Below, piece by piece: positions 1,553-38,600 of a stretch of 48,908 bases of DNA; position 1 is the stretch's first letter; each line of letters starts with the position of its first letter. The notes beneath the pieces were generated by a model that was given only the letters and a program-made list of their open reading frames with translations, did no database searches and was not told where the DNA came from. Source of the DNA: a virus (lineage: Duplodnaviria > Heunggongvirae > Uroviricota > Caudoviricetes). The stretch is from IMG/VR virus record IMGVR_UViG_2897346870_000004, positions 1 through 48,908 of that record, one strand, 5' to 3'. The position numbers and the translations under genes were made by a program.

Positions 1553-1741
1553 TCACGAGGACTGAAGTTGCTCGCAATTAAAATTTATCAGTTTTACTTT
1601 CTGCTCTCTGGAAACGCCTGCTTCTTTTTTACCTGAGAGCATTTTTTCGCATTCTGATTTGGTTAATTTTGTTTTTGAGTACCTTGTCCAGTTAGTAGGA
1701 GTGCCACCTTCCTTTTCAATAGTGGCGGTAATTTTATACAT
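1553..1741 (-). CDS. Hypothetical small early protein (62 aa)
   Basis: ORF with GGAGGTG RBS upstream of ATG at 1741; lies between lar and xis in the leftward operon. Confidence 0.4.
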   Translation of the reverse strand: MYKITATIEKEGGTPTNWTRYSKTKLTKSECEKMLSGKKEAGVSREQKVKLINFNCEQLQSS

Positions 1742-6178: not shown

Positions 6179-6308
6179 TGTTTTTTAACCTCAACTCAGA
6201 TTAAAATTCGTTTTGTTCAGTGAATGATCTTGCCGGATACACACTGTTCATAGCCTGCGCCATACGCAGGCTATTTCTTTCAGATTTCACCTTTTAATTT
6301 CATTGCAA

Positions 6309-7461: not shown

Positions 7462-7950
7462 ATGTTGGATGTATTTACTCCATTGTTGAAACTTTTTGCT
7501 AACGAGCCACTCGAAAGACTTATGTATACGATTATCATTTTTGGTCTCACTCTCTGGCTGATACCGAAAGAGTTTGCTGTCGCATTCAATGCTTATACTG
7601 AAATACCTTGGCTCTTTCAGATTATCGTTTTTGCCTTTTCTTTCGTGGTCGCCATTTCCTTCTCAAGATTGCGAGCACATATTCAAAAGCATTATTCATT
7701 ACTACCAGAGCAACGAGTATTGCTTCGTTTATCTGAGAAAGAAATCGCTGTATTTAAAGATTTCCTTAAAACAGGAAATCTTATTATCACTTCTCCTTGC
7801 CGTAACCCGGTTATGAAAAAATTAGAACGGAAGGGCATCATTCAACATCAGAGTGATAGCGCAAACTGTTCTTATTATCTCGTCACCGAAAAATACTCCC
7901 ATTTTATGAAGTTATTCTGGAACAGCAGGAGTAGACGTTTTAATCGTTAG
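7462..7950 (+). CDS. sieB: Superinfection exclusion protein B
   Basis: MLDVFTPLLKLFANEPLERLMYTIIIFGLTLWLIPKEF membrane protein matching recalled SieB; true start at internal ATG 7462, not the ORF-track start 7339. Confidence 0.85.
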   Translation: MLDVFTPLLKLFANEPLERLMYTIIIFGLTLWLIPKEFAVAFNAYTEIPWLFQIIVFAFSFVVAISFSRLRAHIQKHYSLLPEQRVLLRLSEKEIAVFKDFLKTGNLIITSPCRNPVMKKLERKGIIQHQSDSANCSYYLVTEKYSHFMKLFWNSRSRRFNR

Positions 7951-12828: not shown

Positions 12829-12942
12829 GCGGAAGTTGCTAAAACGGTTTACCGTGTCCAAAGGAGTCAGGGGCAACAACGCGATATTGCTGACTGAGGT
12901 TTGGATCTAATCCTAGGACATGTCAGGAGCAATGCTAATCTA

Positions 12943-12971
12943 TTCATTAAAGCAGAGTATATGCCTATAAT
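12943..12971 (+). promoter_or_regulatory. Candidate sigma70 promoter (TTCATT, 17-nt spacer, TATAAT)
   Basis: Perfect -10 hexamer with a 17-nt spacer to a weak -35, about 84 bp upstream of the 13055 start. Confidence 0.3.
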
Positions 12972-13054
12972 TTAGAACCTTGCTATGGACATGAAAATGT
13001 GTAACATGCAATAGATCTCTACACACAGCAGGATTCCTACACCAAGGAGTGTTT

Positions 13055-13456
13055 ATGATTAACGAATCCAGTCCTTTCCCAGACAACGAAATTATATCCT
13101 TCTATGACTGTACTGGCATGTCCATTTTTTATCTACATAGTGATGGTGAAAGTTTTTATCACTATGACGGAACCCCACTAGCCTATTTATATAATAATGA
13201 ATATATGGTTTCATATTCAGGTCAGTATTTAGGTTGGCTATATAATGGGAGTATTATAGATTATAAAAATGGGGCTTATGTTTTTTTTACAGCTTATAGT
13301 TCTGGTGGGCCATCGCGACCAAGCCGAAAGTCTCGACCAAGTCGATTATCAAGAAGGAGCAGACCTGCTAAATTAATTCGTAATAGTCGACCGTCACGAC
13401 CTTCAAGACAAACCAGATGGAGCGAGCGAAGCAACATGAGTTTTTTCAGTAGTTAA
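13055..13456 (+). CDS. Hypothetical 133-aa protein: fourfold beta-hairpin-like repeat domain plus Ser/Arg/Pro-rich tail (cassette gene 1)
   Basis: AAGGAG RBS 5 nt before ATG 13055; four repeats of Y-x-x-x-G-x-x-[LIV]-x-[YWF]-[LF] (YDCTGMSIFYL, YDGTPLAYL, YSGQYLGWL, YKNGAYVFF); C-terminal SRPSR repeats; AT-rich. Confidence 0.6.
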   Translation: MINESSPFPDNEIISFYDCTGMSIFYLHSDGESFYHYDGTPLAYLYNNEYMVSYSGQYLGWLYNGSIIDYKNGAYVFFTAYSSGGPSRPSRKSRPSRLSRRSRPAKLIRNSRPSRPSRQTRWSERSNMSFFSS

Positions 13457-13534
13457 ATTCTCGTTGTATTAAAAAATAGATTGATTTGAAAGTTAGCATA
13501 TTTACCTACTATCAAATAATGAAAAGGGTTAAAG

Positions 13535-14950
13535 ATGAGTAATCTTCCTACTACAGTAAATACAACCGCAGTAACCACTGGTGTTGATAATTTCACGACG
13601 TCATTAACTACTTACCTCACCGATTTGAATCTTCCGGCAAACGGCGTTTTAGTCGGCAATGATCAGAGGTACACTGTAATTGATAACTTCCCAAAGGTTA
13701 TTGGTGGTATTGACAGTGCAAGGCTTTCAGATTCGTTATATCTATCAAAGTTTATTGCAGCGTGCGGCGCTGGCCTTTTTGATGCAGCACTAAATTTTTT
13801 ATGGAATGAAACAGTAGTAAATTTGAGATGGAAGGTTTCCCTTAACGATATAGACTATTTTTATGACAGTATTGTCACTGACACAAAAAGAAGAGATAAG
13901 CTTAAAACTGTAGATGATTTAGTTAATATAGAGGAGTGGGAGCTTGTTAAGGGTTGCCACTTAACGGGATTACTTTCGGATATAGGTTTTAAACATCTTG
14001 ATTATATAAGAGATATGAGGAACTGGGCTAGTGCAGCACATCCTAACCAAAGTCAGCTAACAGGATTCATGCTCATCTCATGGCTTGAAACCTGCATCAA
14101 AGAAGTGATTGCGAAAGAACCAGAACCTTCTGCATTACAAATAAAGAGAGTACTATCTAACATCAGAGGCGCTAACTTAGAAGGCGATGACTTAGCCCAT
14201 ATAAAATCTGCGATGGAAAACCTACCTCAAGATGTTGTTGATTCTTTCTTAAGAACTATATTTGGGATGTATACTAATGATAACGCGGCTGTACAGGTTA
14301 AGAATAATATAAAAGGAATTGCAAAAAAATGTTGGGATCTTTCGTCAGAAACTACGAAGTATAGTTGTGGTATAAGATATCAATCTTTTGCAGCTAACGG
14401 AGAGAGAGCTAGGAAAGATGCGGCTAATGAGTTTTTAACTACTGTATCTGGTCTTCCATATCTTCCATCAGACTCTTTGGCTGTTGAAATATCAATCAGA
14501 GTGACAAATTTATACCAAGCCCATTTTGGATGGAATAATTTCCATAATGAACCTGCTCATGCATCCTCTTTGGCAGCATATATCTCCTCTGCTGGGAATG
14601 TCCCTGACTCAGTTCGATTTGAATATGTTAAGACTATAGTTTTGTGTTATTTGGGCAACAGCTATGGAGTGTCTAATATGGCCGTTTCTTACTATGAAGA
14701 AATGATTGGTAAGTTCGGCGAGGCAGAGTTAAAAGAGTTCGTAAAAATAATTTATGATAAAGACGTGATATCTAGGCTTGCAACTCAAACATGTGCTTCT
14801 CGATATAAACATATAGCATCCAATTTTGTTAGCAGAACTACCAATCAAATAACCTCGCAAGCTCTTAATGCGATCATAGCATCGACTGCTCTCCAGTTAC
14901 CGAACCTATCGAAAGCAACGGCCTACGATAAACTTATTCGCTCATACTAA
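13535..14950 (+). CDS. Hypothetical 471-aa protein with HEPN-like R-x6-H motif (candidate abortive-infection effector; cassette gene 2)
   Basis: AAAGGG RBS; co-oriented 78 bp downstream of gene 1; followed by a strong terminator; motif RDMRNWASAAH at residues 159-169; no Walker A; AT-rich. Confidence 0.7.
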   Translation: MSNLPTTVNTTAVTTGVDNFTTSLTTYLTDLNLPANGVLVGNDQRYTVIDNFPKVIGGIDSARLSDSLYLSKFIAACGAGLFDAALNFLWNETVVNLRWKVSLNDIDYFYDSIVTDTKRRDKLKTVDDLVNIEEWELVKGCHLTGLLSDIGFKHLDYIRDMRNWASAAHPNQSQLTGFMLISWLETCIKEVIAKEPEPSALQIKRVLSNIRGANLEGDDLAHIKSAMENLPQDVVDSFLRTIFGMYTNDNAAVQVKNNIKGIAKKCWDLSSETTKYSCGIRYQSFAANGERARKDAANEFLTTVSGLPYLPSDSLAVEISIRVTNLYQAHFGWNNFHNEPAHASSLAAYISSAGNVPDSVRFEYVKTIVLCYLGNSYGVSNMAVSYYEEMIGKFGEAELKEFVKIIYDKDVISRLATQTCASRYKHIASNFVSRTTNQITSQALNAIIASTALQLPNLSKATAYDKLIRSY

Positions 14951-14987
14951 ATACTGTGAGACAAAAACAGGCTTAGATCAGATAACA

Positions 14988-15012
14988 GCCCTCTCTATTC
15001 GAGGGCTTTTTT
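14988..15012 (+). terminator. Rho-independent terminator (GCCCTC stem, 7-nt loop, GAGGGC, TTTTTT)
   Basis: Direct reading, 38 bp after the stop of the 471-aa gene. Confidence 0.65.
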
Positions 15013-15102
15013 GTAGGAATGCTTAATTGAATATCCGCTTTTCGCTCAAAGAGGACTAAAATGTTGGCTTGTTTCTGACTTAGAGCATTTAAGGAAGTGC
15101 TG

Positions 15103-15321
15103 GTGGTGACTGGTTGTTGTGTTCCATTTCTACAGAATAAAATCACAGAAACTATACCCAATAGTTGTATTGAATCACTGACGAGACAGCCTCATATTTA
15201 TCAGGACTGGTGTGCGTCTAATACAGGGGGTTGTCGTGCTGGTTCTCAAATGTGCGCTGGCTATTGCGGCTGTAATGGCAATTTATTGTCTTGCTGTTGT
15301 TCTTATGGAGCGGCTTTCTGA
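15103..15321 (+). CDS. Candidate cysteine-rich small protein (about 72 aa, GTG start)
   Basis: AAGGAA RBS 6 nt before GTG 15103; 11 Cys in about 72 residues (GCC, CAGYCGCNGNLLSCCCS); weak support, possibly spurious. Confidence 0.25.
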   Translation: MVTGCCVPFLQNKITETIPNSCIESLTRQPHIYQDWCASNTGGCRAGSQMCAGYCGCNGNLLSCCCSYGAAF

Positions 15322-15473
15322 TTGATTACATACTGGCTAGAAAAAAGGTGTTACCTTGGTTTATCTTTGTCCGGCAAGGTGCGCTCATTAATCTTAAGTA
15401 AATTTATTGCTCAAGTATTCAGATTACTTCTTATGGTTGAAGTCTCCTGTCAATGTAGAACCAATATATTTAC

Positions 15474-15510
15474 AAAAATGAGACCCGTCGGGGATAGCCC
15501 TGCCGGGTCT
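15474..15510 (-). terminator. Hairpin plus T-run terminator for the YeaR-like gene
   Basis: AGACCCG / CGGGTCT stem followed on the minus strand by CATTTTTG, about 30 nt after the stop. Confidence 0.45.
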
Positions 15511-15539
15511 GACTGTTAAAGCATTTTTAATATGATCAT

Positions 15540-15878
15540 CTATTTTTTGGTGCTATAGACTTTTTCGCCCGAGAAGTCTGGAGCGACCCAAAAGTTAATA
15601 TTAAACTGAGCATCATCGCTTAGTTCAACACGGTGCCAGTATTGTGGTGGGCTTGTTGCAAAAGCGCCAGCATTAATGACTACTTTTATCTCCGGTTCAG
15701 TAGCATTCTCATCAGTAAAACCATAATATGTTACAGTGCCTTCCATTACGCACAACTGCCCAAAAACACCTGCTGCTGTATTATGATGTGTTAATAACGC
15801 TGAAGGTACGTTCTCTTTTGTGAAGAACGGAGTTGAGCGTTTGATTACCCAATCTTTAGGAATTCTCTTGTGTGTCAT
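15540..15878 (-). CDS. YeaR-like (DUF1971 / TehB C-terminal-like) protein, 112 aa
   Basis: AGGAGG RBS; motifs RSTPFF, VMEGTVTYYG, EPEIKVVINAGAFATSPPQYWH, FNINFWVAPD resemble my recollection of YeaR; AT-rich moron on the opposite strand to neighbours. Confidence 0.7.
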   Translation of the reverse strand: MTHKRIPKDWVIKRSTPFFTKENVPSALLTHHNTAAGVFGQLCVMEGTVTYYGFTDENATEPEIKVVINAGAFATSPPQYWHRVELSDDAQFNINFWVAPDFSGEKVYSTKK

Positions 15879-15893
15879 AACCACCTCCTCAAA

Positions 15894-15916
15894 AACATGC
15901 ATTATAAATGCGTGTT
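15894..15916. promoter_or_regulatory. NsrR-like 11-1-11 inverted repeat AACATGCATTA-T-AAATGCGTGTT with a TATAAT at its centre on the minus strand
   Basis: Direct reading; 16 bp upstream of the YeaR-like start; resembles the NsrR operator consensus as I recall it (AAnATGCATTT-n-AAATGCATnTT). Confidence 0.4.
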
Positions 15917-16203
15917 TTTGAGGGTTATGTCAAGCTGTTATGAAACACATAATTGATATGTTGATTAGAGGAGAAGATATAATAAATATGGTTGTTTTTC
16001 GTATAACTATTTGTTTTACTTTTAGTTTATGCATTCTGTGTGTTAGGAATAAGTTATTAAAGTTTAATCAAAAAATCTCGATGTAGTCCACATAGATTAT
16101 TGTTACTGAACCTTATTGTGTGTATTAGTTGTGTTCTGAAATTTCAGCTTAATTATTTATGATGTATTTTTTAACGATAAATATTTTCCCAGGATACCTT
16201 TAC

Positions 16204-16230
16204 TGTGTATATAAATAAATTATATACACA
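16204..16230. repeat. 27-bp palindrome TGTGTATATAA-ATAAA-TTATATACACA
   Basis: 11-bp perfect arms with 5-nt spacer inside a roughly 790-bp AT-rich non-coding stretch. Confidence 0.6.
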
Positions 16231-16691
16231 TAAATAATGTAAAGGCGTCCTTTTAGATATATCTTATCAAATGTTAATGACTTGAGTGGGAAATATGATT
16301 CCAGCAACTTATCATGTGGCTACTTTATAAAAATAATGCCCATATAAAACAACAAGCGAAAAGGATTACGGATAAAAAAGGAGCGAGATGTGCGAACTTG
16401 TTATTTTCCATGTTTAACCACCTTAAATAATTGATGATGACGGGATGATTGCATCTGTAATGCTTTTATTGAAATGTTATGATAAAAAAGAACTTTTGCA
16501 TAACATTAAAATGTAATTTATCTAATCGTTTTTAATAATAAATGTCGTATTTCTATCCTTGTACCAGCTATTTGATATGTAGTGTTTGTTCATGCTATGT
16601 GGGGCTTTACACCATAGCCAGTTTATTTATACTTTATTCGTCAGCCTGAACAACTGGCATCTGCTGCGCTGCGCCATCGAGAGATTGAGAA

Positions 16692-17291
16692 ATGGCGCAT
16701 ATACAACTGGTCAAACAAACCTCTTCTGGTTTACTTCTCCCGGCGACGCCGGAGAGTTGCGATTTTCTGCATCAAATCAAAATAGGTGAGTGGATACACG
16801 CAGACTTTAAGCGTGTGCGTAACTACGCATTCCACAAGCGTTTTTTCAAACTCCTGCAACTGGGATTCGATTACTGGACTCCGGTCGGTGGGGCGATCAC
16901 ACCTCGCGAACGAGAACTGCTGTCTGGTTTCGTGGATTACTTGTGCGAATCAGTTGGTCGGGAACACACACCAGCCCTGAGTGATGCCGCAGAGCAATAT
17001 CTAAATACAGTTGCGACACGCAGAACTCGGGATACGGCATTGCTAAAGTCGTTTGAGGCTTTCCGCGAGTGGGTAACCATTCAGGCCGGATTTTACACCG
17101 AGCATATTTATCCGGACGGTAGCCGTGGGCGCAGGGCGAAATCCATCGCGTTTGCGAATATGGACGAAACCGAGTTTCAGCAGGTTTATAAATCTGTTCT
17201 GAATGTGCTGTGGAACTGGATTCTGTTCCGTAAATTCTCCTCTCAGGAGGAAGTTGAAAATGTGGCCGCACAACTACTGGAGTTTGCGTAA
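16692..17291 (+). CDS. Nin-region protein (DUF1367-like)
   Basis: 199-aa ORF at the start of the nin/Q module; family call from recollection. Confidence 0.5.
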   Translation: MAHIQLVKQTSSGLLLPATPESCDFLHQIKIGEWIHADFKRVRNYAFHKRFFKLLQLGFDYWTPVGGAITPRERELLSGFVDYLCESVGREHTPALSDAAEQYLNTVATRRTRDTALLKSFEAFREWVTIQAGFYTEHIYPDGSRGRRAKSIAFANMDETEFQQVYKSVLNVLWNWILFRKFSSQEEVENVAAQLLEFA

Positions 17292-17581
17292 TGGTGAATT
17301 TACGTAAAGCGGCTAAAGGCCAGATGTGCCAGATCAGAATCCCTGGCTACTGCAATCACAATCCCGAAACCTCTGTGCTGGCGCATTACAGGCTGGCGGG
17401 GACGTGCGGAACAGCGACAAAACCACACGATATGCAGGCAGCGATTGCCTGTAGCTCATGCCACGATTTAATCGACGGGCGGGTAAAAACCAGCGATTAC
17501 ACCAAAGAAGAATTACGCCTGATGCATGCAGAAGGTGTTTTTCGCACACAAGAAATCTGGAGAAAGGAAGGTTATTTATGA
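17291..17581 (+). CDS. YbcO-like protein (DUF1364, Cys-rich)
   Basis: 96-aa ORF, TAATG-coupled to the upstream gene; Cys motifs CQIRIPGYCNHNPETSVLAH and ACSSCHD. Confidence 0.55.
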   Translation: MVNLRKAAKGQMCQIRIPGYCNHNPETSVLAHYRLAGTCGTATKPHDMQAAIACSSCHDLIDGRVKTSDYTKEELRLMHAEGVFRTQEIWRKEGYL

Positions 17582-18120
17582 TTTACCCAACAAATACAGG
17601 CAAAAGCGGGGAACACCTTCGTCTCACCACGCTGGAAAGTGTCTGGATTCAGGGAAAACTGCGCATGTGGGGGCGCTGGTCGTATATTGGCGGCGGTAAG
17701 ACGGGAAATATGTTTAACCAGTTGCTGGCATCCAAAAAATTGACGAAAACAGCCGTCAATGAAGCCCTGCGCAGGATGAAAAAAGCGGGAATAGAGAAAC
17801 CTGAGCTGGAAGCGTTTTTGCGAGAGATGATCAATGGCAAGCAAAAGACCTGGCTGGCGCATTGTACTGATGCAGAGGCGTTATGTATTGATAGAGTCAT
17901 AAGTGAGGTGCTGGCAGAGCATCCTGGATTGATTAGTGTCCTCCGGCAACGGTATGAAGGACGGGGGATGACTAAGCGCAAAATGGCTGAATTGCTAAAT
18001 GATGCACATCCTGAGTGGTGTTTTAGCACATGCGAAAAGCGAATTGCTAATTGGTTGGCTGTTGCTGAGTATGCCCTATATATTCCCATGCGAGAATCAT
18101 TTGCTCAAAAAATAGCTTGA
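17578..18120 (+). CDS. Putative late-gene antiterminator Q (phage 82-type family)
   Basis: ATGA-coupled start at 17578; LRMWGRWSYIGGG motif resembles Q82-type antiterminators as I recall them; position immediately upstream of the lysis region. Confidence 0.55.
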   Translation: MIYPTNTGKSGEHLRLTTLESVWIQGKLRMWGRWSYIGGGKTGNMFNQLLASKKLTKTAVNEALRRMKKAGIEKPELEAFLREMINGKQKTWLAHCTDAEALCIDRVISEVLAEHPGLISVLRQRYEGRGMTKRKMAELLNDAHPEWCFSTCEKRIANWLAVAEYALYIPMRESFAQKIA

Positions 18121-18341: not shown

Positions 18342-18911
18342 ATGAGAGAACTACCTAAAGATTATTTTTTAGGAGTAGATGATGAGCTCGTCGATTATCT
18401 TGAAAAACAAGGGGAAGAGACGATACGAGAGATTCATCTTTCTAACAAAACCAATGTTGAGAATGGATACAAACTTCTGAACATTCAGATTGTTGGAATT
18501 GGTTCATCTTTTTTATTGCTGACACAGAAAACTAATTTCGATTTTCTCACCGCCGGAATTACCACATTTACATTACTATGGACATGGTGCGCCATTTACT
18601 TGGTATGTACTGGTTTATCTGTGAAGGTTAGGGGCCTGATCAATGCCCCTCCTGATCATCTATATCATGAAAAATATAAGGATATGGAGCCCTCGAGCTT
18701 TAAAATATTCGCTGATGCAGGATATTTAGGACCTGATAAGTTATTGCCGCTTATACGAAGGTATCGCCTTGTTGACTTGAGTGATACAGCAAGAGAGTTA
18801 CTGTTGGAAAATGAGAAAATCCGCACGAGTCTCGATAAAGCAAGGATGTATACCATCCTTGCTCCGGTAGCGGCGATGTTTATCTCGGCTGTTTTTTTAT
18901 ATGTTCAATGA
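18342..18911 (+). CDS. Hypothetical membrane protein (189 aa) inserted between Q and holin
   Basis: Strong GGAGGTGA RBS; three hydrophobic segments (one C-terminal); AT-rich. Confidence 0.5.
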   Translation: MRELPKDYFLGVDDELVDYLEKQGEETIREIHLSNKTNVENGYKLLNIQIVGIGSSFLLLTQKTNFDFLTAGITTFTLLWTWCAIYLVCTGLSVKVRGLINAPPDHLYHEKYKDMEPSSFKIFADAGYLGPDKLLPLIRRYRLVDLSDTARELLLENEKIRTSLDKARMYTILAPVAAMFISAVFLYVQ

Positions 18912-35688: not shown

Positions 35689-38600
35689 ATGGCAGAGCAA
35701 ACCTCGCGTCTCGCAATAATTATTGATAGCACTGGAGCGAAAAATAATGCTGACAATCTGACCTCCTCATTAGTCAAAATGACGCAGGCTGGGGAAACTG
35801 CTGCAAATAGCGCAGGGAAAGTGACTAAGGCAACAGAAGATGAGAAGAACGCGCTCGCAAAATTAAAAGCAGCTATTGATCCAGTTGGTGCCGCAATTGA
35901 TACTGTCGGTCGACGCTATTCTGAATTAAAGAAATTTTTCGATAAAGGGCTTATTGATAAAGAAGAATATGAATTTCTTGTCCGTAAACTTAATGAAACC
36001 ACAGAGGAATTGAGCGGGGTTGCGCAAGCGCAGAGAGAAGCCGAGAAGGCCGGAAAACTTGCTGCCGCCCAGCAGGAAGCGCAGGCTCAGGCCTTTCAAA
36101 GAATGCTGGACAAGATCGACCCTCTGGCTGCGGCGCTAAGAAATCTTGAACAACAGCATGATGAACTTAATGCTGCGTTTGCATCCGGGAAAATAAATGG
36201 TTCTCAGTTTGAGAATTATAGCCGAAAAATACAGGAAACACGGCGAGAGCTTACCGGAGAGGCTCAGGCAGAGCGAGAAGCAGCAAAAGCGCATGATGAA
36301 CAGGTTGTTGCTTTGCAACGTCTGATTGCTCAACTTGATCCTGTCGGAACTGCTTTTAATCGTCTGGTAGAACAACAGAAACAGCTCAATGAAGCAAAAG
36401 CTAAGGGGATGCTTTCTCCTGAAATGTATGAGGAGCTTTCTGGAAAACTTCGTGCTATGCGGAGTGAGCTTGAGGTTACTCAATCACAATTAAGCAAAAC
36501 CGGAATGTCGGCAAAACAAACGGCTTTTGCTATGCGCATGTTGCCTGCACAAATGACGGATATTGTTGTTGGGTTGTCCACTGGTCAGTCGCCATTTATG
36601 GTGTTAATGCAGCAGGGCGGCCAGCTAAAAGATATGTTCGGTGGGATTGGCCCGGCGATCAAAGGTGTAGGTTCTTATGTGCTGGGATTAATTAATCCTT
36701 TTACCCTGGCCGCAGCAGCCGTTGGGGTCTTAGGACTGGCTTACTATAAAGGCTCTCAGGAGCAGGACGAATTTAATAAATCTCTTATTCTTACCGGAAA
36801 TCAGTTGGGGACAACCAGCGGGCAATTGGGCGATATAGCTCAACGTGCCGGGAATGCGGCTGATTCGACAACTGGTGCTGCGGCGGCAGTATTAAATCAG
36901 CTTGTGCGTTCGGGAAAGGTAGCGAGCAGTTCGCTGGAGCAAGTGACGACAGCGATAGTAAAAACGAGCGAAGTAACAGGAATATCAACCGAACAACTGG
37001 TTAATGACTTCAATGAAATTGCAAAGGATCCTGTCAGTGCCATATCAAAACTTAATGATCAGTACCATTTTCTGACACTTGCGACTTATAACCAGATTAA
37101 GGCGCTACAGGATGAAGGGAACCAGCAGGAGGCCGCCCGCATTGCGACAGAAGAATACTCATCCTCAATGATCCAGCGCACCAACCAGATTAAAGAAAAT
37201 CTTGGTTATCTTGAGACTGCATGGAAAGCTGTCGCAGACTCCGCAAAATGGGCATGGGATTCCATGCTGGATATTGGCCGTGAGGCCTCCCTTGATCAAA
37301 AAATCTCAGATGTTCTCCGTCAAATTGATGAAATAGAAAAAAATACCCGACCCGGAGTTTTCGGGTTAGGTGGCATTGGAGATGGCGGAGCTCAAAATAA
37401 AAGGCTGGCACGATTAAAGCAGCAATTGGGCGTACTTCAAGCAGAAAAAATTGCTCAGGACGTACTAAATTCATCAATAAACGATTACAACAAGCGACAA
37501 CAGGAAGGAATTGAACTCAGACAGAGAGCAGATGCCTTTTCAAAACAATATCAGACCCGGGAGCAGCAGAGAGCTAGTGAACTTGCAAAACTGGAAAAGC
37601 TAAAGAATCAGTATTCAAAGGAAGAATATAATAATCTTATCGCTCAAATAAATGAGCGTTATAAAGATCCAAAGCAACCAAAGGCGAAAGGTTATTCTGA
37701 TGATGCAGCCCAACGAATGATTGATCATCTGAATCAACAGAATGCGTTACTAAGTTCACAAGCTGAGTTGACCGTTAAATTAAGTTCCTCTGAACAGGAA
37801 CTGGTTAAGTGGCGTCAGCGGATTGCCGACCTAGAGTCACGACCATCATCGAAATTAACCCAGGATCAGAAATCGCTTCTCTTACACCGGGAAGAAATAA
37901 CCGCGTTGATGGAGAAAAATGTTGCGATTGAAAAGAATAACAGGCTAATCAAGGAATCCGCCGAAATAACAGCATGGCGTGATTCATTGCAGGCTTCGAT
38001 TGATAATCGTCAGCAGGGGTATGATATTCAGATTGCTGGTTATGGGGTTGGCGATAAAAATCAGCAACGCCAGCAGGAATTACTGCGGATTGAACATGGA
38101 TATAACAATCAGCGTCTGCAACTTGAACGTGACTATGCAGATAAATCCCGTGGAATGTCAGATCATGTTTTTCAAGAGAAAATGCAGGCTCTGAATGATG
38201 CTCTGGAACGGGAAAAAGAAATTGTCAGACAGAAAAACGAGCAGCTCGATATTCAGGCAGGAGACTGGGTTAGTGGTGCCTCCCAGGGATTCAATAACTG
38301 GCTGGATGACACTAAGGATATCAGTGAGCAGATAAAATCAACCACGACTCAGATGTTTGATGGGATGACCGATGCGCTGGGTGATTTTGTCACGACAGGC
38401 AAGGCAAATTTTCGTTCTTTCGCTACTTCCGTGATTTCGGATCTTAGTCGAATAGCATTAAAGGCTTCAATTACTGGGATTTTCGACAGCATTAGTAACA
38501 GTTCTTCTGGGGGGATTTTAGGAACTATCGGGAGTGCTATTAGTAAATTTATTCCGAATGCAAAGGGCGGTGTTTATGAGTCTCCGTCATTGAGCACGTA

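What the first reader, a model, noticed from the sequence alone, without database searches (positions are those of the whole stretch)
15917..16691. Roughly 790-bp AT-rich non-coding stretch with a 27-bp perfect palindrome
Seen: no ORF of plausible length, extremely AT-rich, and it contains TGTGTATATAA-ATAAA-TTATATACACA at 16204-16230 (11-bp perfect arms). A non-coding region this long is unusual in a phage genome. It could hold promoters or operators for the divergent YeaR-like and nin/Q genes, a small RNA, or an H-NS-silenced acquisition scar. No function can be read from sequence alone.
Basis: seen in the sequence. Interest (0 to 1): 0.4.

Follow-up and report, generated by a model that had tools for sequence, protein, structure and literature searches.

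The report
Composite prophage control region, missed gene
The "empty" AT-rich gap in this E. coli prophage is a junction of ordinary control signals that also hides an unannotated 28-codon membrane-peptide gene and a widely conserved folded RNA leader in front of the genes that switch on phage late functions.

Summary
The palindrome and the AT-richness are real. The palindrome has 11-bp arms at 16204-16230, and 4 of 1000 shuffles do as well. The stretch is neither one element nor fully non-coding. The true gap is 15879-16691, in a Rac-type prophage, at a cargo hotspot just before the nin/Q operon. Five parts were found.

1. An NsrR-type 11-1-11 operator overlaps a TATAAT in front of the YeaR-like gene (15894-16916 region: 15894-15916).
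2. A 61-nt hairpin (16191-16251) followed by UUUU looks like a rightward terminator. The palindrome is only its tip, and it is imperfect in sister variants.
3. A missed 28-codon ORF, "p28", lies on the minus strand (16325-16411). It is intact in all 251 copies examined, has no indels, shows dN/dS 0.29, and matches no known family. Its module occurs in 1186 of 5426 complete E. coli genomes and is never annotated.
4. A conserved upstream region of p28.
5. A promoter (16606-16633) plus a two-hairpin leader (16640-16699) in front of the NinB-like (DUF1367)/YbcO/Q genes. The leader is conserved across about 30 enterobacterial genera with strong covariation, and its second hairpin sequesters the ribosome-binding site and AUG.

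The promoter and first hairpin were annotated in phage 82 in 1996 as a "possible regulator-binding site". Nothing in the stretch matches Rfam. All functions are inferred.

The parts
15894..15916 (-). NsrR-type operator: an 11-1-11 dyad, AACATGCATTA-T-AAATGCGTGTT. It is the core of a 17-3-17 inverted repeat at 15887-15923. It overlaps a TATAAT (minus strand, 15906-15901) about 23 nt upstream of the DUF1971/YeaR-like start codon (15878).
   Evidence: Inverted repeat I2; minus-strand sequence. The K-12 yeaR promoter has the same layout, with TAAAAT inside AAATGGTATTTAAAATGCAAATT. Sister variant v8 reads AAGATGCATTA-A-AAATGCATCTT. The 23-bp 11-1-11 architecture of NsrR sites is stated in PMC3887101. 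The consensus letters are recalled from memory.
15940..16086 (+). 48-codon ORF that is NOT conserved; treated as non-coding.
   Evidence: In-frame stop codons in loci L002 and L004.
16191..16255 (+). Long imperfect hairpin: lower stem AGGATACCTTTAC / GTAAAGGCGTCCT, upper stem the 27-bp palindrome (16204-16230). On the plus strand it is followed by TTTT(AGATAT). Interpreted as a terminator-like structure for rightward transcription.
   Evidence: Fold energy -23.8 kcal/mol, z -5.7 on the plus strand; -26.1, z -6.1 on the minus strand. All six distinct variants keep a hairpin of -20 to -30 kcal/mol plus the invariant TCCTTTTAGATAT, although the apical arms differ. The lower-stem A-C mismatch in the window is G-C or A-T in other variants. 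Not flagged by the simple terminator scan.
16204..16230 (.). The reported 27-bp perfect palindrome, which is the apex of the hairpin above.
   Evidence: 4 of 1000 shuffles reach an arm of 11 or more. The arms carry 1-3 mismatches in sister variants.
16325..16411 (-). Missed small gene 'p28': MENNKFAHLAPFLSVILFACCFIWALFL, a polar N-terminus followed by a C-terminal hydrophobic segment of about 18 residues. Shine-Dalgarno AAGGTGG at 16424-16418, 6 nt before the ATG.
   Evidence: Intact, exactly 28 codons, in 181 of 181 fetched loci (13 protein and 16 DNA variants) and in 70 of 70 metagenome hits. No gap columns, against 8-12 in the adjacent spacer; 79-84% identity against 66-70%. dN/dS 0.29 between the two variant groups. 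No Pfam, NCBIfam, PHROG or PADLOC match. Never annotated in RefSeq.
16412..16605 (-). Upstream region of p28. It contains a conserved block at 16491-16537, a hairpin ATGTTATG/CATAACAT (16472-16503), and a tentative weak promoter on the minus strand (-35 TTATTA 16538-16533, -10 TACATT 16515-16510).
   Evidence: Travels with p28 whatever lies to the left or right. In variant group 2 one hairpin position would be G.U on the minus strand and A.C on the plus strand. The promoter is read from the sequence only (7 of 12 matches) and is not supported by the scan.
16606..16633 (+). Sigma-70 promoter of the nin/Q operon: TTTACA-16 nt-TATACT.
   Evidence: 10 of 12 match. The hexamers are invariant while the spacer varies among E. 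coli variants. In other genera the same position keeps a -10 together with either a good -35 (TTGACC, TTGATT) or an extended -10 (TGATATTAT, TGATAATAT). Annotated as putative -35 and -10 in phage 82 record X92588.1.
16640..16658 (+). Leader hairpin H1: GUCAG-CCUGAACAA-CUGGC. It begins at about +1 to +3 of the predicted transcript. The stem covaries and the loop core UGAAC is invariant.
   Evidence: RNAalifold. Pair counts on 33 sequences from about 30 genera and on 82 distinct sequences: 98% of cells paired, and 4 of 5 pairs show 3-5 pair types. G.U outnumbers A.C 13 to 6, mildly favouring plus-strand RNA. Single copy in the window.
16670..16699 (+). Leader hairpin H2: UGCGCCA pairs with UGGCGCA, which includes the UG of the DUF1367 start codon (16692). 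The ribosome-binding site lies in or is paired within the enclosed loop.
   Evidence: Compensatory changes track the coding arm: Pantoea CUGUGUCA/UGGCACAG, Serratia GUUGUGCCA/UGGCACAAC, C. braakii GCACCA/UGGUGC. The same arm forces all first ORFs behind this leader to start M-A-(H/Q).
16692..18120 (+). The operon served by the leader: DUF1367 (NinB/Orf family), YbcO-like nuclease and DUF1133 Q-type antiterminator. Start and stop codons overlap by 1 and 4 nt.
   Evidence: Pfam; PHROG 319 NinB/Orf at E 3e-70; coordinates.

Best explanation
The 813-bp AT-rich gap is a mosaic junction. It lies where a variable cargo hotspot of Rac/Qin-type lambdoid prophages meets the fixed start of the nin/Q operon. 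From left to right it holds five parts.

1. The promoter of the YeaR-like cargo gene, with an NsrR-type operator over its -10. The gene is therefore probably switched on by nitric oxide or nitrosative stress.
2. About 300 bp of AT-rich DNA ending in a 61-nt hairpin plus a U-tract. This probably stops rightward transcription coming from the early/cargo region, at the position where lambda has terminator tR2. The reported palindrome is only the tip of this hairpin.
3. A small leftward gene, p28, for a 28-residue tail-anchored membrane peptide. It probably behaves as a lysogen-expressed accessory gene.
4. The upstream region of p28.
5. A near-consensus promoter whose transcript begins with a hairpin carrying an invariant CUGAACA loop. 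A second hairpin follows and locks up the ribosome-binding site and start codon of the first nin gene.

The three genes behind the leader (NinB-like, YbcO, Q) are translationally coupled. The leader most likely keeps Q, and hence lysis, off until some factor or alternative fold opens hairpin 2. Untranslated transcripts would then be cut short by Rho.

Shown: the sequence features, their modular inheritance, the conservation of the p28 ORF, and the covariation of both leader hairpins. Inferred: every functional statement, namely NsrR control, termination, p28 expression, translational gating and Rho polarity.
For: Modularity.
- The left 420 bp travels with the DUF1971 cassette.
- The right 370 bp travels with the nin genes whatever cargo lies to the left: IteA/IteS, NACHT, relBE-hokD, QueH or transporters.
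- The right 370 bp also travels whatever first gene lies to the right.

NsrR-type operator.

Hairpin and palindrome. Lambda has tR2 at the equivalent place.

p28. Its module is in 1186 of 5426 complete E. coli genomes.

Promoter.

Leader structure.
- (RNAalifold).
- 96.8% of cells paired against 85.1 +/- 1.0 in shuffles, 0 of 500 shuffles as high; covariation score 0.345 against 0.051 or less for slid partners.
- 96.6% against 81.7%; 176 double-change cells against 53.5.
- The same element sits upstream of ylcH in K-12 DLP12 and of orf33 in phage 82.
- The DLP12 operon is reported to need an IS-borne promoter for adequate expression (PMC4118853; PMC12844172). This fits a leader that holds expression down.
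Against: - There is no expression, binding or termination data for any part.
- The hairpin was not called by the simple terminator scan. Its U-tract is short (UUUU then AGAUAU).
- The -35 TTGACA near the YeaR-like promoter is 21 nt from the TATAAT, which is too far for a standard sigma-70 promoter.
- The p28 coding signal rests on few substitutions (6.6 synonymous, 9.9 non-synonymous) and on only two deep variant groups. Its commonest variant has a weaker Shine-Dalgarno (AAAGTGA).
- In this window's own sequence the single-sequence fold of the leader is no more stable than shuffles (z -0.27) and does not form H1 as the minimum-energy structure. Support for H1 comes from comparison, not from energy.
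- H2 conservation in alignment A3 is partly forced by the search pattern used to collect those sequences.
Confidence: 0.6

Rival explanations
1. The stretch is a functionless, H-NS-coated AT-rich acquisition scar, and the palindrome is an accident of TA-rich low-complexity sequence.
For: GC is 0.26-0.30. The stretch belongs to a horizontally moving cassette. The perfect arms are not kept in sister variants. IS elements insert here. About 300 bp (15930-16190) has no feature that could be supported.
Against: Only 4 of 1000 shuffles reach an 11-bp arm. The larger hairpin is kept in all variants. The p28 ORF, the promoter hexamers and both leader hairpins show selective conservation. H-NS coating and function are not mutually exclusive.
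Confidence: 0.12
2. The 27-bp palindrome is a double-stranded DNA operator for a dimeric regulator that controls the divergent genes.
For: Perfect dyad symmetry, significant against shuffles. It lies between divergent genes.
Against: The arm sequences differ among variants by 1-3 positions, and one variant shifts register, which is not expected of a protein-contact site. The palindrome is more than 300 bp from the YeaR-like start, 400 bp from the nin promoter, and downstream of p28. There is no second copy in the window. It is embedded in a longer hairpin whose lower stem shows pair-restoring changes.
Confidence: 0.08
3. A small RNA of about 85 nt is made from the promoter-like site CTGAAA-16-TATGAT (16136-16163) and ends at the hairpin plus U-tract (16191-16255). 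It would be about 142 nt in variants carrying the 57-bp insert.
For: A 9 of 12 promoter match. The hairpin plus UUUU is a plausible sRNA 3' end. Both are kept in all variants.
Against: The number of promoter matches in the region is below the shuffle expectation (5 found against 6.3 expected). All of this cassette is about 90% conserved, so conservation says little. No Rfam match. A 57-bp indel falls inside the putative RNA.
Confidence: 0.12
4. p28 is the toxin of a type I toxin-antitoxin pair, and its conserved upstream region encodes or binds an antisense antitoxin RNA.
For: It is a 28-residue hydrophobic tail-anchored peptide. A conserved upstream region of about 190 nt carries a hairpin. 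It is prophage-borne and often lies next to hokD.
Against: There is no repeat that would give the divergent leader RNA complementarity to the p28 untranslated region. No supported antisense promoter was found. There are no tandem copies. No match to known toxin families. Toxicity is untested.
Confidence: 0.2
5. Leader hairpin H1 is a nut/boxB-like or boxA-like site that makes RNA polymerase termination-resistant, rather than a partner in translational control.
For: It is promoter-proximal, with a covarying stem and an invariant loop. The loop U-GAACA-A resembles the lambda U-GAAAA-A and P22 U-GACAA-A boxB loops, and 7 of 9 positions of the rrn boxA 3' part; these comparisons are from memory and are a lead only. 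It sits ahead of the Q gene, where lambda needs antitermination.
Against: There is only one copy per phage, with no left-operon partner. There is no boxA 5' of it, because the hairpin starts at about +1. The identical loop occurs in phages with unrelated immunity and antitermination systems, including HK639 and phage 82. No terminator is evident between the leader and Q in this window.
Confidence: 0.15

Closest known systems
Phage 82 / DLP12 region upstream of orf33 (ylcH): putative -35, putative -10 and 'possible regulator-binding site' (GenBank X92588.1; Mahdi, Sharples, Mandal and Lloyd 1996)
   Same: This is the same element as the window's promoter plus H1, with the same layout: -35, -10, an inverted repeat with the loop CCTGAACAA, a ribosome-binding site enclosed by a second hairpin, and then the first nin-region ORF. 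Model R1, built from other genera, hits the K-12 copy at 36.6 bits.
   Different: In phage 82 and DLP12 the H1 stem is 9-10 bp and GC-rich, and the first ORF is a 33-codon peptide followed by ybcN (NinB-like). In the window the stem is 5 bp and the first ORF is full-length DUF1367. The 1996 annotation treats it as a DNA repeat. The covariation found here points to an RNA hairpin and adds the second, start-codon-sequestering hairpin.
Lambda terminator tR2 (between ren and ninB)
   Same: It occupies the same map position, immediately upstream of the NinB-family gene that opens the nin region. The window's hairpin plus U-tract at 16191-16255 may play the tR2 role.
   Different: Lambda has a canonical GC-rich terminator directly followed by the ninB ribosome-binding site. 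It has no promoter and no match to the leader model. In the window the candidate terminator is AT-rich, interrupted, 440 bp upstream, and separated from the nin gene by p28 and a promoter.
E. coli K-12 yeaR-yoaG promoter with its NsrR site
   Same: A DUF1971 gene (41% identical protein) is preceded by an A/T-rich 23-bp dyad of the ATGC-ATTT type with the -10 hexamer at its centre.
   Different: The gene is prophage-borne and has no yoaG partner. The dyad is extended to 17-nt arms. No NarL-type heptamers were looked for. Regulation is untested.
Small hydrophobic prophage or chromosomal peptides of E. coli (type I toxins such as Hok, ShoB, Ibs, TisB; small membrane proteins)
   Same: Size (28 aa), a polar head plus one hydrophobic segment, a strong Shine-Dalgarno, orientation opposite to phage early transcription, and frequent adjacency to hokD.
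   Different: No sequence similarity to any library family. No partner RNA identified. Found only in Escherichia/Shigella among the loci examined.
Lambda N-gene leader (nutL boxB plus a downstream stem that limits N translation)
   Same: The order promoter, then a small conserved-loop hairpin, then a structure occluding the start of the first gene of an operon that controls phage development. This comparison is from established knowledge, recalled from memory.
   Different: There is no boxA, no N-like gene behind it, a single copy per genome, and the loop sequence differs. See the membership test.

Membership tests
NsrR operator | 23-bp site made of two 11-bp inverted half-sites separated by one base | tested here: met
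   AACATGCATTA-T-AAATGCGTGTT at 15894-15916. Architecture as stated in PMC3887101.
NsrR operator | Match to the consensus AAGATGCATTT-N-AAATGCATCTT (letters recalled from memory) | tested here: met
   The window matches 18 of 22 positions. Sister variant v8 (AAGATGCATTA-A-AAATGCATCTT) matches 21 of 22.
NsrR operator | Overlaps core promoter elements of a known NsrR-regulon type gene | tested here: met
   TATAAT lies at the dyad centre, upstream of a DUF1971 gene, as TAAAAT does in K-12 yeaR.
NsrR operator | NsrR binding and derepression by nitric oxide | not testable with these tools
   Needs a gel shift or ChIP and an expression assay.
Intrinsic (Rho-independent) terminator | Stable stem-loop with a GC-rich base | tested here: met
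   -23.8 kcal/mol, z -5.7. The base pairs GGAUaCC with GGcGUCC. A hairpin is kept in all variants.
Intrinsic (Rho-independent) terminator | Run of U directly 3' of the stem | tested here: inconclusive
   UUUUAGAUAU on the plus strand, invariant, but only four consecutive U. The minus strand has GGGAAAAUAUUU. Not called by the scan.
Intrinsic (Rho-independent) terminator | Lies at the 3' end of a transcription unit, with RNA 3' ends mapping there | not testable with these tools
   In L005-type loci it follows a plus-strand NACHT gene. In the window no plus-strand gene ends nearby. Needs Term-seq.
Protein-coding small gene (p28) | ORF kept open with fixed length across diverged copies | tested here: met
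   251 of 251 copies are 28 codons. No gap columns, against 8-12 in the spacer.
Protein-coding small gene (p28) | Excess of synonymous over non-synonymous change | tested here: met
   dN/dS 0.29; variable sites by codon position 6, 8 and 12. The counts are small.
Protein-coding small gene (p28) | Translation detected | not testable with these tools
   No ribosome profiling or tagging data were available. The peptide strings are absent from the paper library.
Type I toxin-antitoxin system | Small hydrophobic toxin peptide | tested here: met
   28 aa, with a C-terminal hydrophobic stretch of about 18 residues.
Type I toxin-antitoxin system | Adjacent antisense or divergent RNA complementary to the toxin mRNA | tested here: not met
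   No direct repeat links the divergent leader transcript to the p28 upstream region. No supported antisense promoter. Absence of evidence only.
Lambda-type nut site (boxA + boxB) | boxB hairpin with a U.A-closed GNRA-like pentaloop | tested here: inconclusive
   The loop nCUGAACAm could form U-GAACA-A, but only with a 2-nt bulge. Covariation supports a 9-nt loop.
Lambda-type nut site (boxA + boxB) | boxA a few bases 5' of boxB | tested here: not met
   H1 starts 6-7 nt after the -10, so no transcribed sequence precedes it.
Lambda-type nut site (boxA + boxB) | Two copies per phage, one in each early operon | tested here: not met
   One hit in the window with filters off (59.5 bits; the next is 12 bits, E 0.39). 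The motif scan agrees.
Structured 5' leader that occludes the translation start | Shine-Dalgarno and/or AUG held in a helix supported by covariation | tested here: met
   H2 pairs 66-71/89-94 and 73-74/86-87 in A2. They are 97% paired and four of them show double changes.
Structured 5' leader that occludes the translation start | Regulatory effect on translation, and a defined signal | not testable with these tools
   Needs reporter fusions with compensatory mutants.
Any Rfam family | Score at or above the family's gathering threshold | tested here: not met
   Only RalA, at 1557-1735, passes in the window. In 15850-16760 every hit is a eukaryotic miRNA or snoRNA model far below threshold.

The most novel reading that the evidence does not exclude
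The promoter-proximal two-hairpin leader is an undescribed, host-factor-read riboregulator. It has an invariant CUGAACA loop plus a hairpin sequestering the ribosome-binding site and AUG. It would act as the master gate for Q antiterminator synthesis, and so for the lysis decision, in a large class of lambdoid prophages of Enterobacteriaceae that includes DLP12, phage 82, and Rac-, Qin- and Gifsy-like elements. p28 would be a new Escherichia-specific membrane-active peptide, possibly a toxin, parked beside this gate.
Probability: 0.25. Interest if true: 0.7.

Novelty: new member of a known kind. Interest (0 to 1): 0.5.

Why it matters
Three consequences follow if the inferences hold.

1. About one in five complete E. 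coli genomes carries an unannotated 28-residue membrane-peptide gene. Small hydrophobic prophage peptides are often toxins, exclusion factors or modulators of host membrane proteins.

2. The genes that trigger late development (Q) in many enterobacterial prophages sit behind a near-consensus promoter and a conserved folded leader, and nobody appears to have tested that leader. It is a concrete handle on how cryptic and intact prophages keep lysis genes silent. It also bears on why the DLP12 rusA operon is silent in K-12.

3. The leader, including the first two or three codons, is shared by unrelated first genes and is sometimes duplicated. It therefore looks like a recombination joint as well as a control element, which is relevant to how lambdoid mosaics are built.

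For the finding as originally posed the lesson is more modest. The palindrome itself is an ordinary hairpin tip, not a special site.

Tried and rejected
- 48-codon ORF at 15940-16086: rejected as a gene, because it has in-frame stops in L002 and L004.
- Other small ORFs in the left part: crossed by 1-nt indels in sister variants.
- Palindrome as a LexA, CRP or NsrR box: the sequence does not fit (read directly from the sequence).
- Second copy of H1 at 37791 (AGTTCC-TCTGAACA-GGAACT): lies inside a 1077-codon ORF that I take, without checking, to be the tape-measure gene, and is not found by the covariance model. Treated as coincidence.
- K-12 'rem' as the equivalent of the 92-aa protein or of p28: rejected. 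K-12 Qin lacks both p28 and the leader at that spot.
- Literature search for the p28 peptide strings: no paper. The search for 'ylcH' gave only chemistry false positives. The 'DUF1367' search gave nothing on regulation.
- ERROR to flag: the genome contigs pattern had 15 N instead of 18, so its zero hits mean nothing and are not used. The corrected pattern was run on metagenome contigs.
- Lambda was checked for the leader: absent, with tR2 in its place.
- PADLOC on the neighbouring cargo proteins: no hits.
- The p28 promoter could not be located with confidence.
Full report
**Setting.** The window is a Rac-type lambdoid prophage of E. coli. RalA, the antitoxin RNA of the Rac ralR locus, is the only Rfam family that passes threshold (1557-1735). 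The finding lies between a leftward DUF1971 (YeaR-like) gene and a rightward set of three genes:
- DUF1367, which PHROGs places in the NinB/Orf family (E 3e-70);
- a YbcO-type nuclease;
- a DUF1133 Q-type antiterminator.

The three rightward genes overlap by 1 and 4 nt, so they are probably translationally coupled.

**Checking the observation.**
- The palindrome is exactly as described (16204-16230, 11-bp arms, 5-nt loop).
- It is the longest perfect small-loop palindrome in the window. Only 4 of 1000 dinucleotide shuffles of the gap do as well.
- GC falls to 0.26-0.32.
- PGAP annotation of identical loci starts the DUF1971 gene at the ATG at 15878, preceded by GAGGAGGTGG. The gap is therefore 15879-16691, 813 bp.

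**The stretch is modular.**
- The gap (window 15903-16691, the query) has a match in 851 of 5426 complete E. coli genomes, full-length in 462.
- The left 420 bp occurs only with the DUF1971 cassette.
- The right 370 bp occurs with the nin genes whatever lies to the left: IteA/IteS, a NACHT protein, relBE-hokD, QueH, or transporters.
- The site is therefore a cargo hotspot between the replication genes (DUF977/LygF) and the nin region.

**Left end: the YeaR-like promoter.**
- A 17-3-17 inverted repeat (15887-15923) has as its core a 23-bp 11-1-11 dyad, AACATGCATTA-T-AAATGCGTGTT.
- A minus-strand TATAAT sits at its centre, about 23 nt before the start codon.
- The K-12 yeaR promoter has the same arrangement, and the two proteins are 41% identical.
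- A sister variant reads AAGATGCATTA-A-AAATGCATCTT.
- The 11-1-11 architecture of NsrR sites is stated in PMC3887101. The consensus letters are from my memory.
- I infer NO-responsive repression by NsrR. This was not tested.

**The palindrome.**
- Among 23 distinct versions of the left part, the perfect arms occur only in the window's own group. Others have one to three mismatches, or pair in a shifted register. That argues against a protein-contact operator.
- The palindrome is the tip of a 61-nt hairpin (16191-16251) whose 13-bp lower stem is AGGATACCTTTAC/GTAAAGGCGTCCT.
- The single A-C mismatch in the window's lower stem is G-C or A-T in other variants.
- Every variant folds to -20 to -30 kcal/mol. 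The window's fold is -23.8 kcal/mol, z -5.7.
- On the plus strand the stem is followed by the invariant UUUUAGAUAU.
- I read this as a terminator-like structure for rightward transcription, at the map position where lambda has tR2.
- The U-tract is short and the simple scan did not call it, so confidence here is moderate.
- A 48-codon ORF at 15940-16086 is broken in two relatives and is not a gene.

**A missed gene, p28.**
- On the minus strand, 16411 to 16325 encodes MENNKFAHLAPFLSVILFACCFIWALFL, with AAGGTGG 6 nt upstream.
- It is intact and exactly 28 codons in 181 of 181 fetched loci (13 protein variants, 16 DNA variants) and in 70 of 70 metagenome hits.
- Between the two deep variant groups the ORF is 79-84% identical with no gap columns. 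The adjacent spacer is 66-70% identical with 8-12 gap columns, and the flank beyond the stop codon is unrelated.
- dN/dS is 0.29, from 6.6 synonymous differences over 16.7 sites against 9.9 non-synonymous over 67.3.
- Replacements keep the hydrophobic tail (A/V, F/L/C, I/V).
- There is no match in Pfam, NCBIfam, PHROGs or PADLOC, and RefSeq never annotates it.
- The module is in 1186 of 5426 complete E. coli genomes, including CFT073.
- It is in only four sequenced phages, all of them Escherichia phages.
- Among DUF1367 loci from species-representative genomes, it is present only in Shigella flexneri and Escherichia ruysiae.
- One scan meant to test its range was mis-specified and is disregarded.
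- I put the chance that p28 is a real gene at about 0.75. Its function is unknown. A membrane-active accessory peptide expressed in the lysogen is the natural reading, and a type I toxin is possible, but no partner RNA was found.

**Right end: promoter and leader.**
- TTTACA-16-TATACT (16606-16633) matches 10 of 12 positions.
- Among E. coli variants the two hexamers are invariant while the spacer changes.
- Upstream of DUF1367 in about 30 other genera the same position keeps a -10, together with either a good -35 or an extended -10.
- Directly after it come two hairpins.

| Hairpin | Window coordinates | Sequence and pairing |
|---|---|---|
| H1 | 16640-16658 | GUCAG-CCUGAACAA-CUGGC; the stem varies freely but stays paired, and the loop core UGAAC never changes |
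| H2 | 16670-16699 | UGCGCCA pairs with UGGCGCA of the start-codon region; the GG of the ribosome-binding site pairs with CC just before the AUG in most genera |

**Support for the leader structure.**
- RNAalifold predicts exactly these helices.
- On 33 sequences, 96.8% of cells pair against 85.1 +/- 1.0 in shuffles (0 of 500 as high). There are 51 double-change cells against 14.4. The covariation score is 0.345 against 0.051 or less when partners are slid.
- A covariance model built from that alignment finds one copy in the window (59.5 bits).
- On 82 distinct sequences it gives 96.6% paired against 81.7%, and 176 double changes against 53.5.
- That second set was gathered with a pattern that fixes the H1 loop and the H2 arms. 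Only its H1 stem statistics are unbiased.
- G.U outnumbers A.C 13 to 6 in H1, which mildly favours a plus-strand RNA.
- In the window's own sequence the leader fold is not unusually stable (z -0.27). The K-12 version is (z -6.2).

**Reach of the leader.**
- The same leader precedes unrelated first genes: DUF1367; a 92-aa protein that is a leader-derived N-terminus fused to PHROG 1212; 26-36-codon ORFs; and LexA-N-like proteins. All begin M-A-(H/Q), because ATGGCGCA is one arm of H2.
- Some phages carry two copies 1.2 kb apart.
- K-12 has the leader upstream of ylcH in DLP12.
- Phage 82 record X92588.1 annotates its putative -35, putative -10 and the H1 repeat as a "possible regulator-binding site". 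The promoter and repeat were therefore noticed in 1996.
- I found no test of their function. Rfam has nothing here.
- Papers note that the DLP12 operon needs an inserted promoter for adequate expression. This fits a leader that holds expression down.
- Lambda lacks the leader.

**Mechanism proposed (inference).** A strong promoter in front of a coupled NinB-like/YbcO/Q operon would be lethal in a lysogen unless checked. H2 blocks initiation at the first start codon. Without translation, coupling fails and Rho would end transcription before Q. H1, at the very 5' end with an invariant loop shared by phages with unrelated immunity systems, is the likely docking site for a host factor or a fold-switch partner that relieves the block. 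A nut-like antitermination role is a weaker alternative, because there is no boxA and no second copy.

**Verdict.** The value lies in what surrounds it: a probable NO-responsive operator, an unannotated small gene, and a widespread, structurally supported but functionally untested leader in front of the late-gene switch.

Noticed in passing
window 1557-1735: RalA antitoxin sRNA (Rfam RF02694, 215 bits). It marks the element as a Rac-type prophage carrying the ralR/ralA type I toxin-antitoxin pair.
   Followed up: no
window about 12900-16650; loci L001-L008, L261: The interval between the DUF977/LygF gene and the nin leader is a cargo hotspot. Different strains carry here the DUF1971 cassette, QueH, a LysR regulator with transporters, IteA/IteS, a NACHT protein, relBE-hokD, or hok alone.
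   Followed up: partly
window 13535-14950 (+): A low-GC 471-aa protein with no Pfam, NCBIfam or PADLOC match; PHROG 27609, function unknown. It is probably cargo, given its place in the hotspot.
   Followed up: partly
window 18342-18911 (+): A 189-aa protein between Q and the holin (PHROG 11870, function unknown; predicted membrane segments). It looks like an accessory gene in the late-promoter region.
   Followed up: no
L376 8281-8470 (K-12 DLP12, upstream of and including ylcH): The K-12 small protein YlcH (33 aa) is the first ORF behind the same leader, and its stop overlaps the ybcN start. Similar 26-36-codon ORFs ending in ...CGGEA or ...ASDFL... follow the leader in other phages and may be remnants of a NinB-like N-terminus.
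   Followed up: partly
L319 1846-1933 and 3062-3145; L327 7819-7906 and 9048-9131: Two tandem copies of the leader lie 1.2 kb apart. The first, with loop UCUGGACAA, precedes a 75-aa membrane protein. This suggests cargo is inserted by recombination at the leader.
   Followed up: partly
L261 5353-5631 (CFT073) and similar loci: The 92-aa 'hypothetical protein' after the leader is a 26-aa leader-derived N-terminus fused to a 66-aa PHROG 1212 protein. That protein is free-standing (MKKSWFQH...) in other phages.
   Followed up: partly
window 16187/16188: A 57-bp insertion/deletion polymorphism relative to sister variants, bounded by TTCCCAGG direct repeats (slippage deletion).
   Followed up: yes
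hit H49 (strain RM10740) and L005 4799-6027: IS1 is inserted inside the AT-rich stretch in one strain. IS3 is inserted between the p28 module and DUF1367 in another. In L001 an IS3 splits the Q gene.
   Followed up: no
window 15097-15520: Short ORFs resembling the region upstream of hok in other prophages (MLVVTGCCVPFLQNKITETIPNS...). This may be a decayed hok/mok remnant left of the DUF1971 gene. No Rfam Sok or hok hit.
   Followed up: no
window 6250-6274, 7757-7782, 18839-18863: Three other perfect 10-bp-arm palindromes with 5-6-nt loops. They are GC-richer and are likely terminators or operators of other genes.
   Followed up: no
window 16174-16183: ACGATAAATA resembles the high-affinity H-NS nucleation motif TCGATAAATT (motif recalled from memory). 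This fits possible H-NS coating of the AT-rich part.
   Followed up: no
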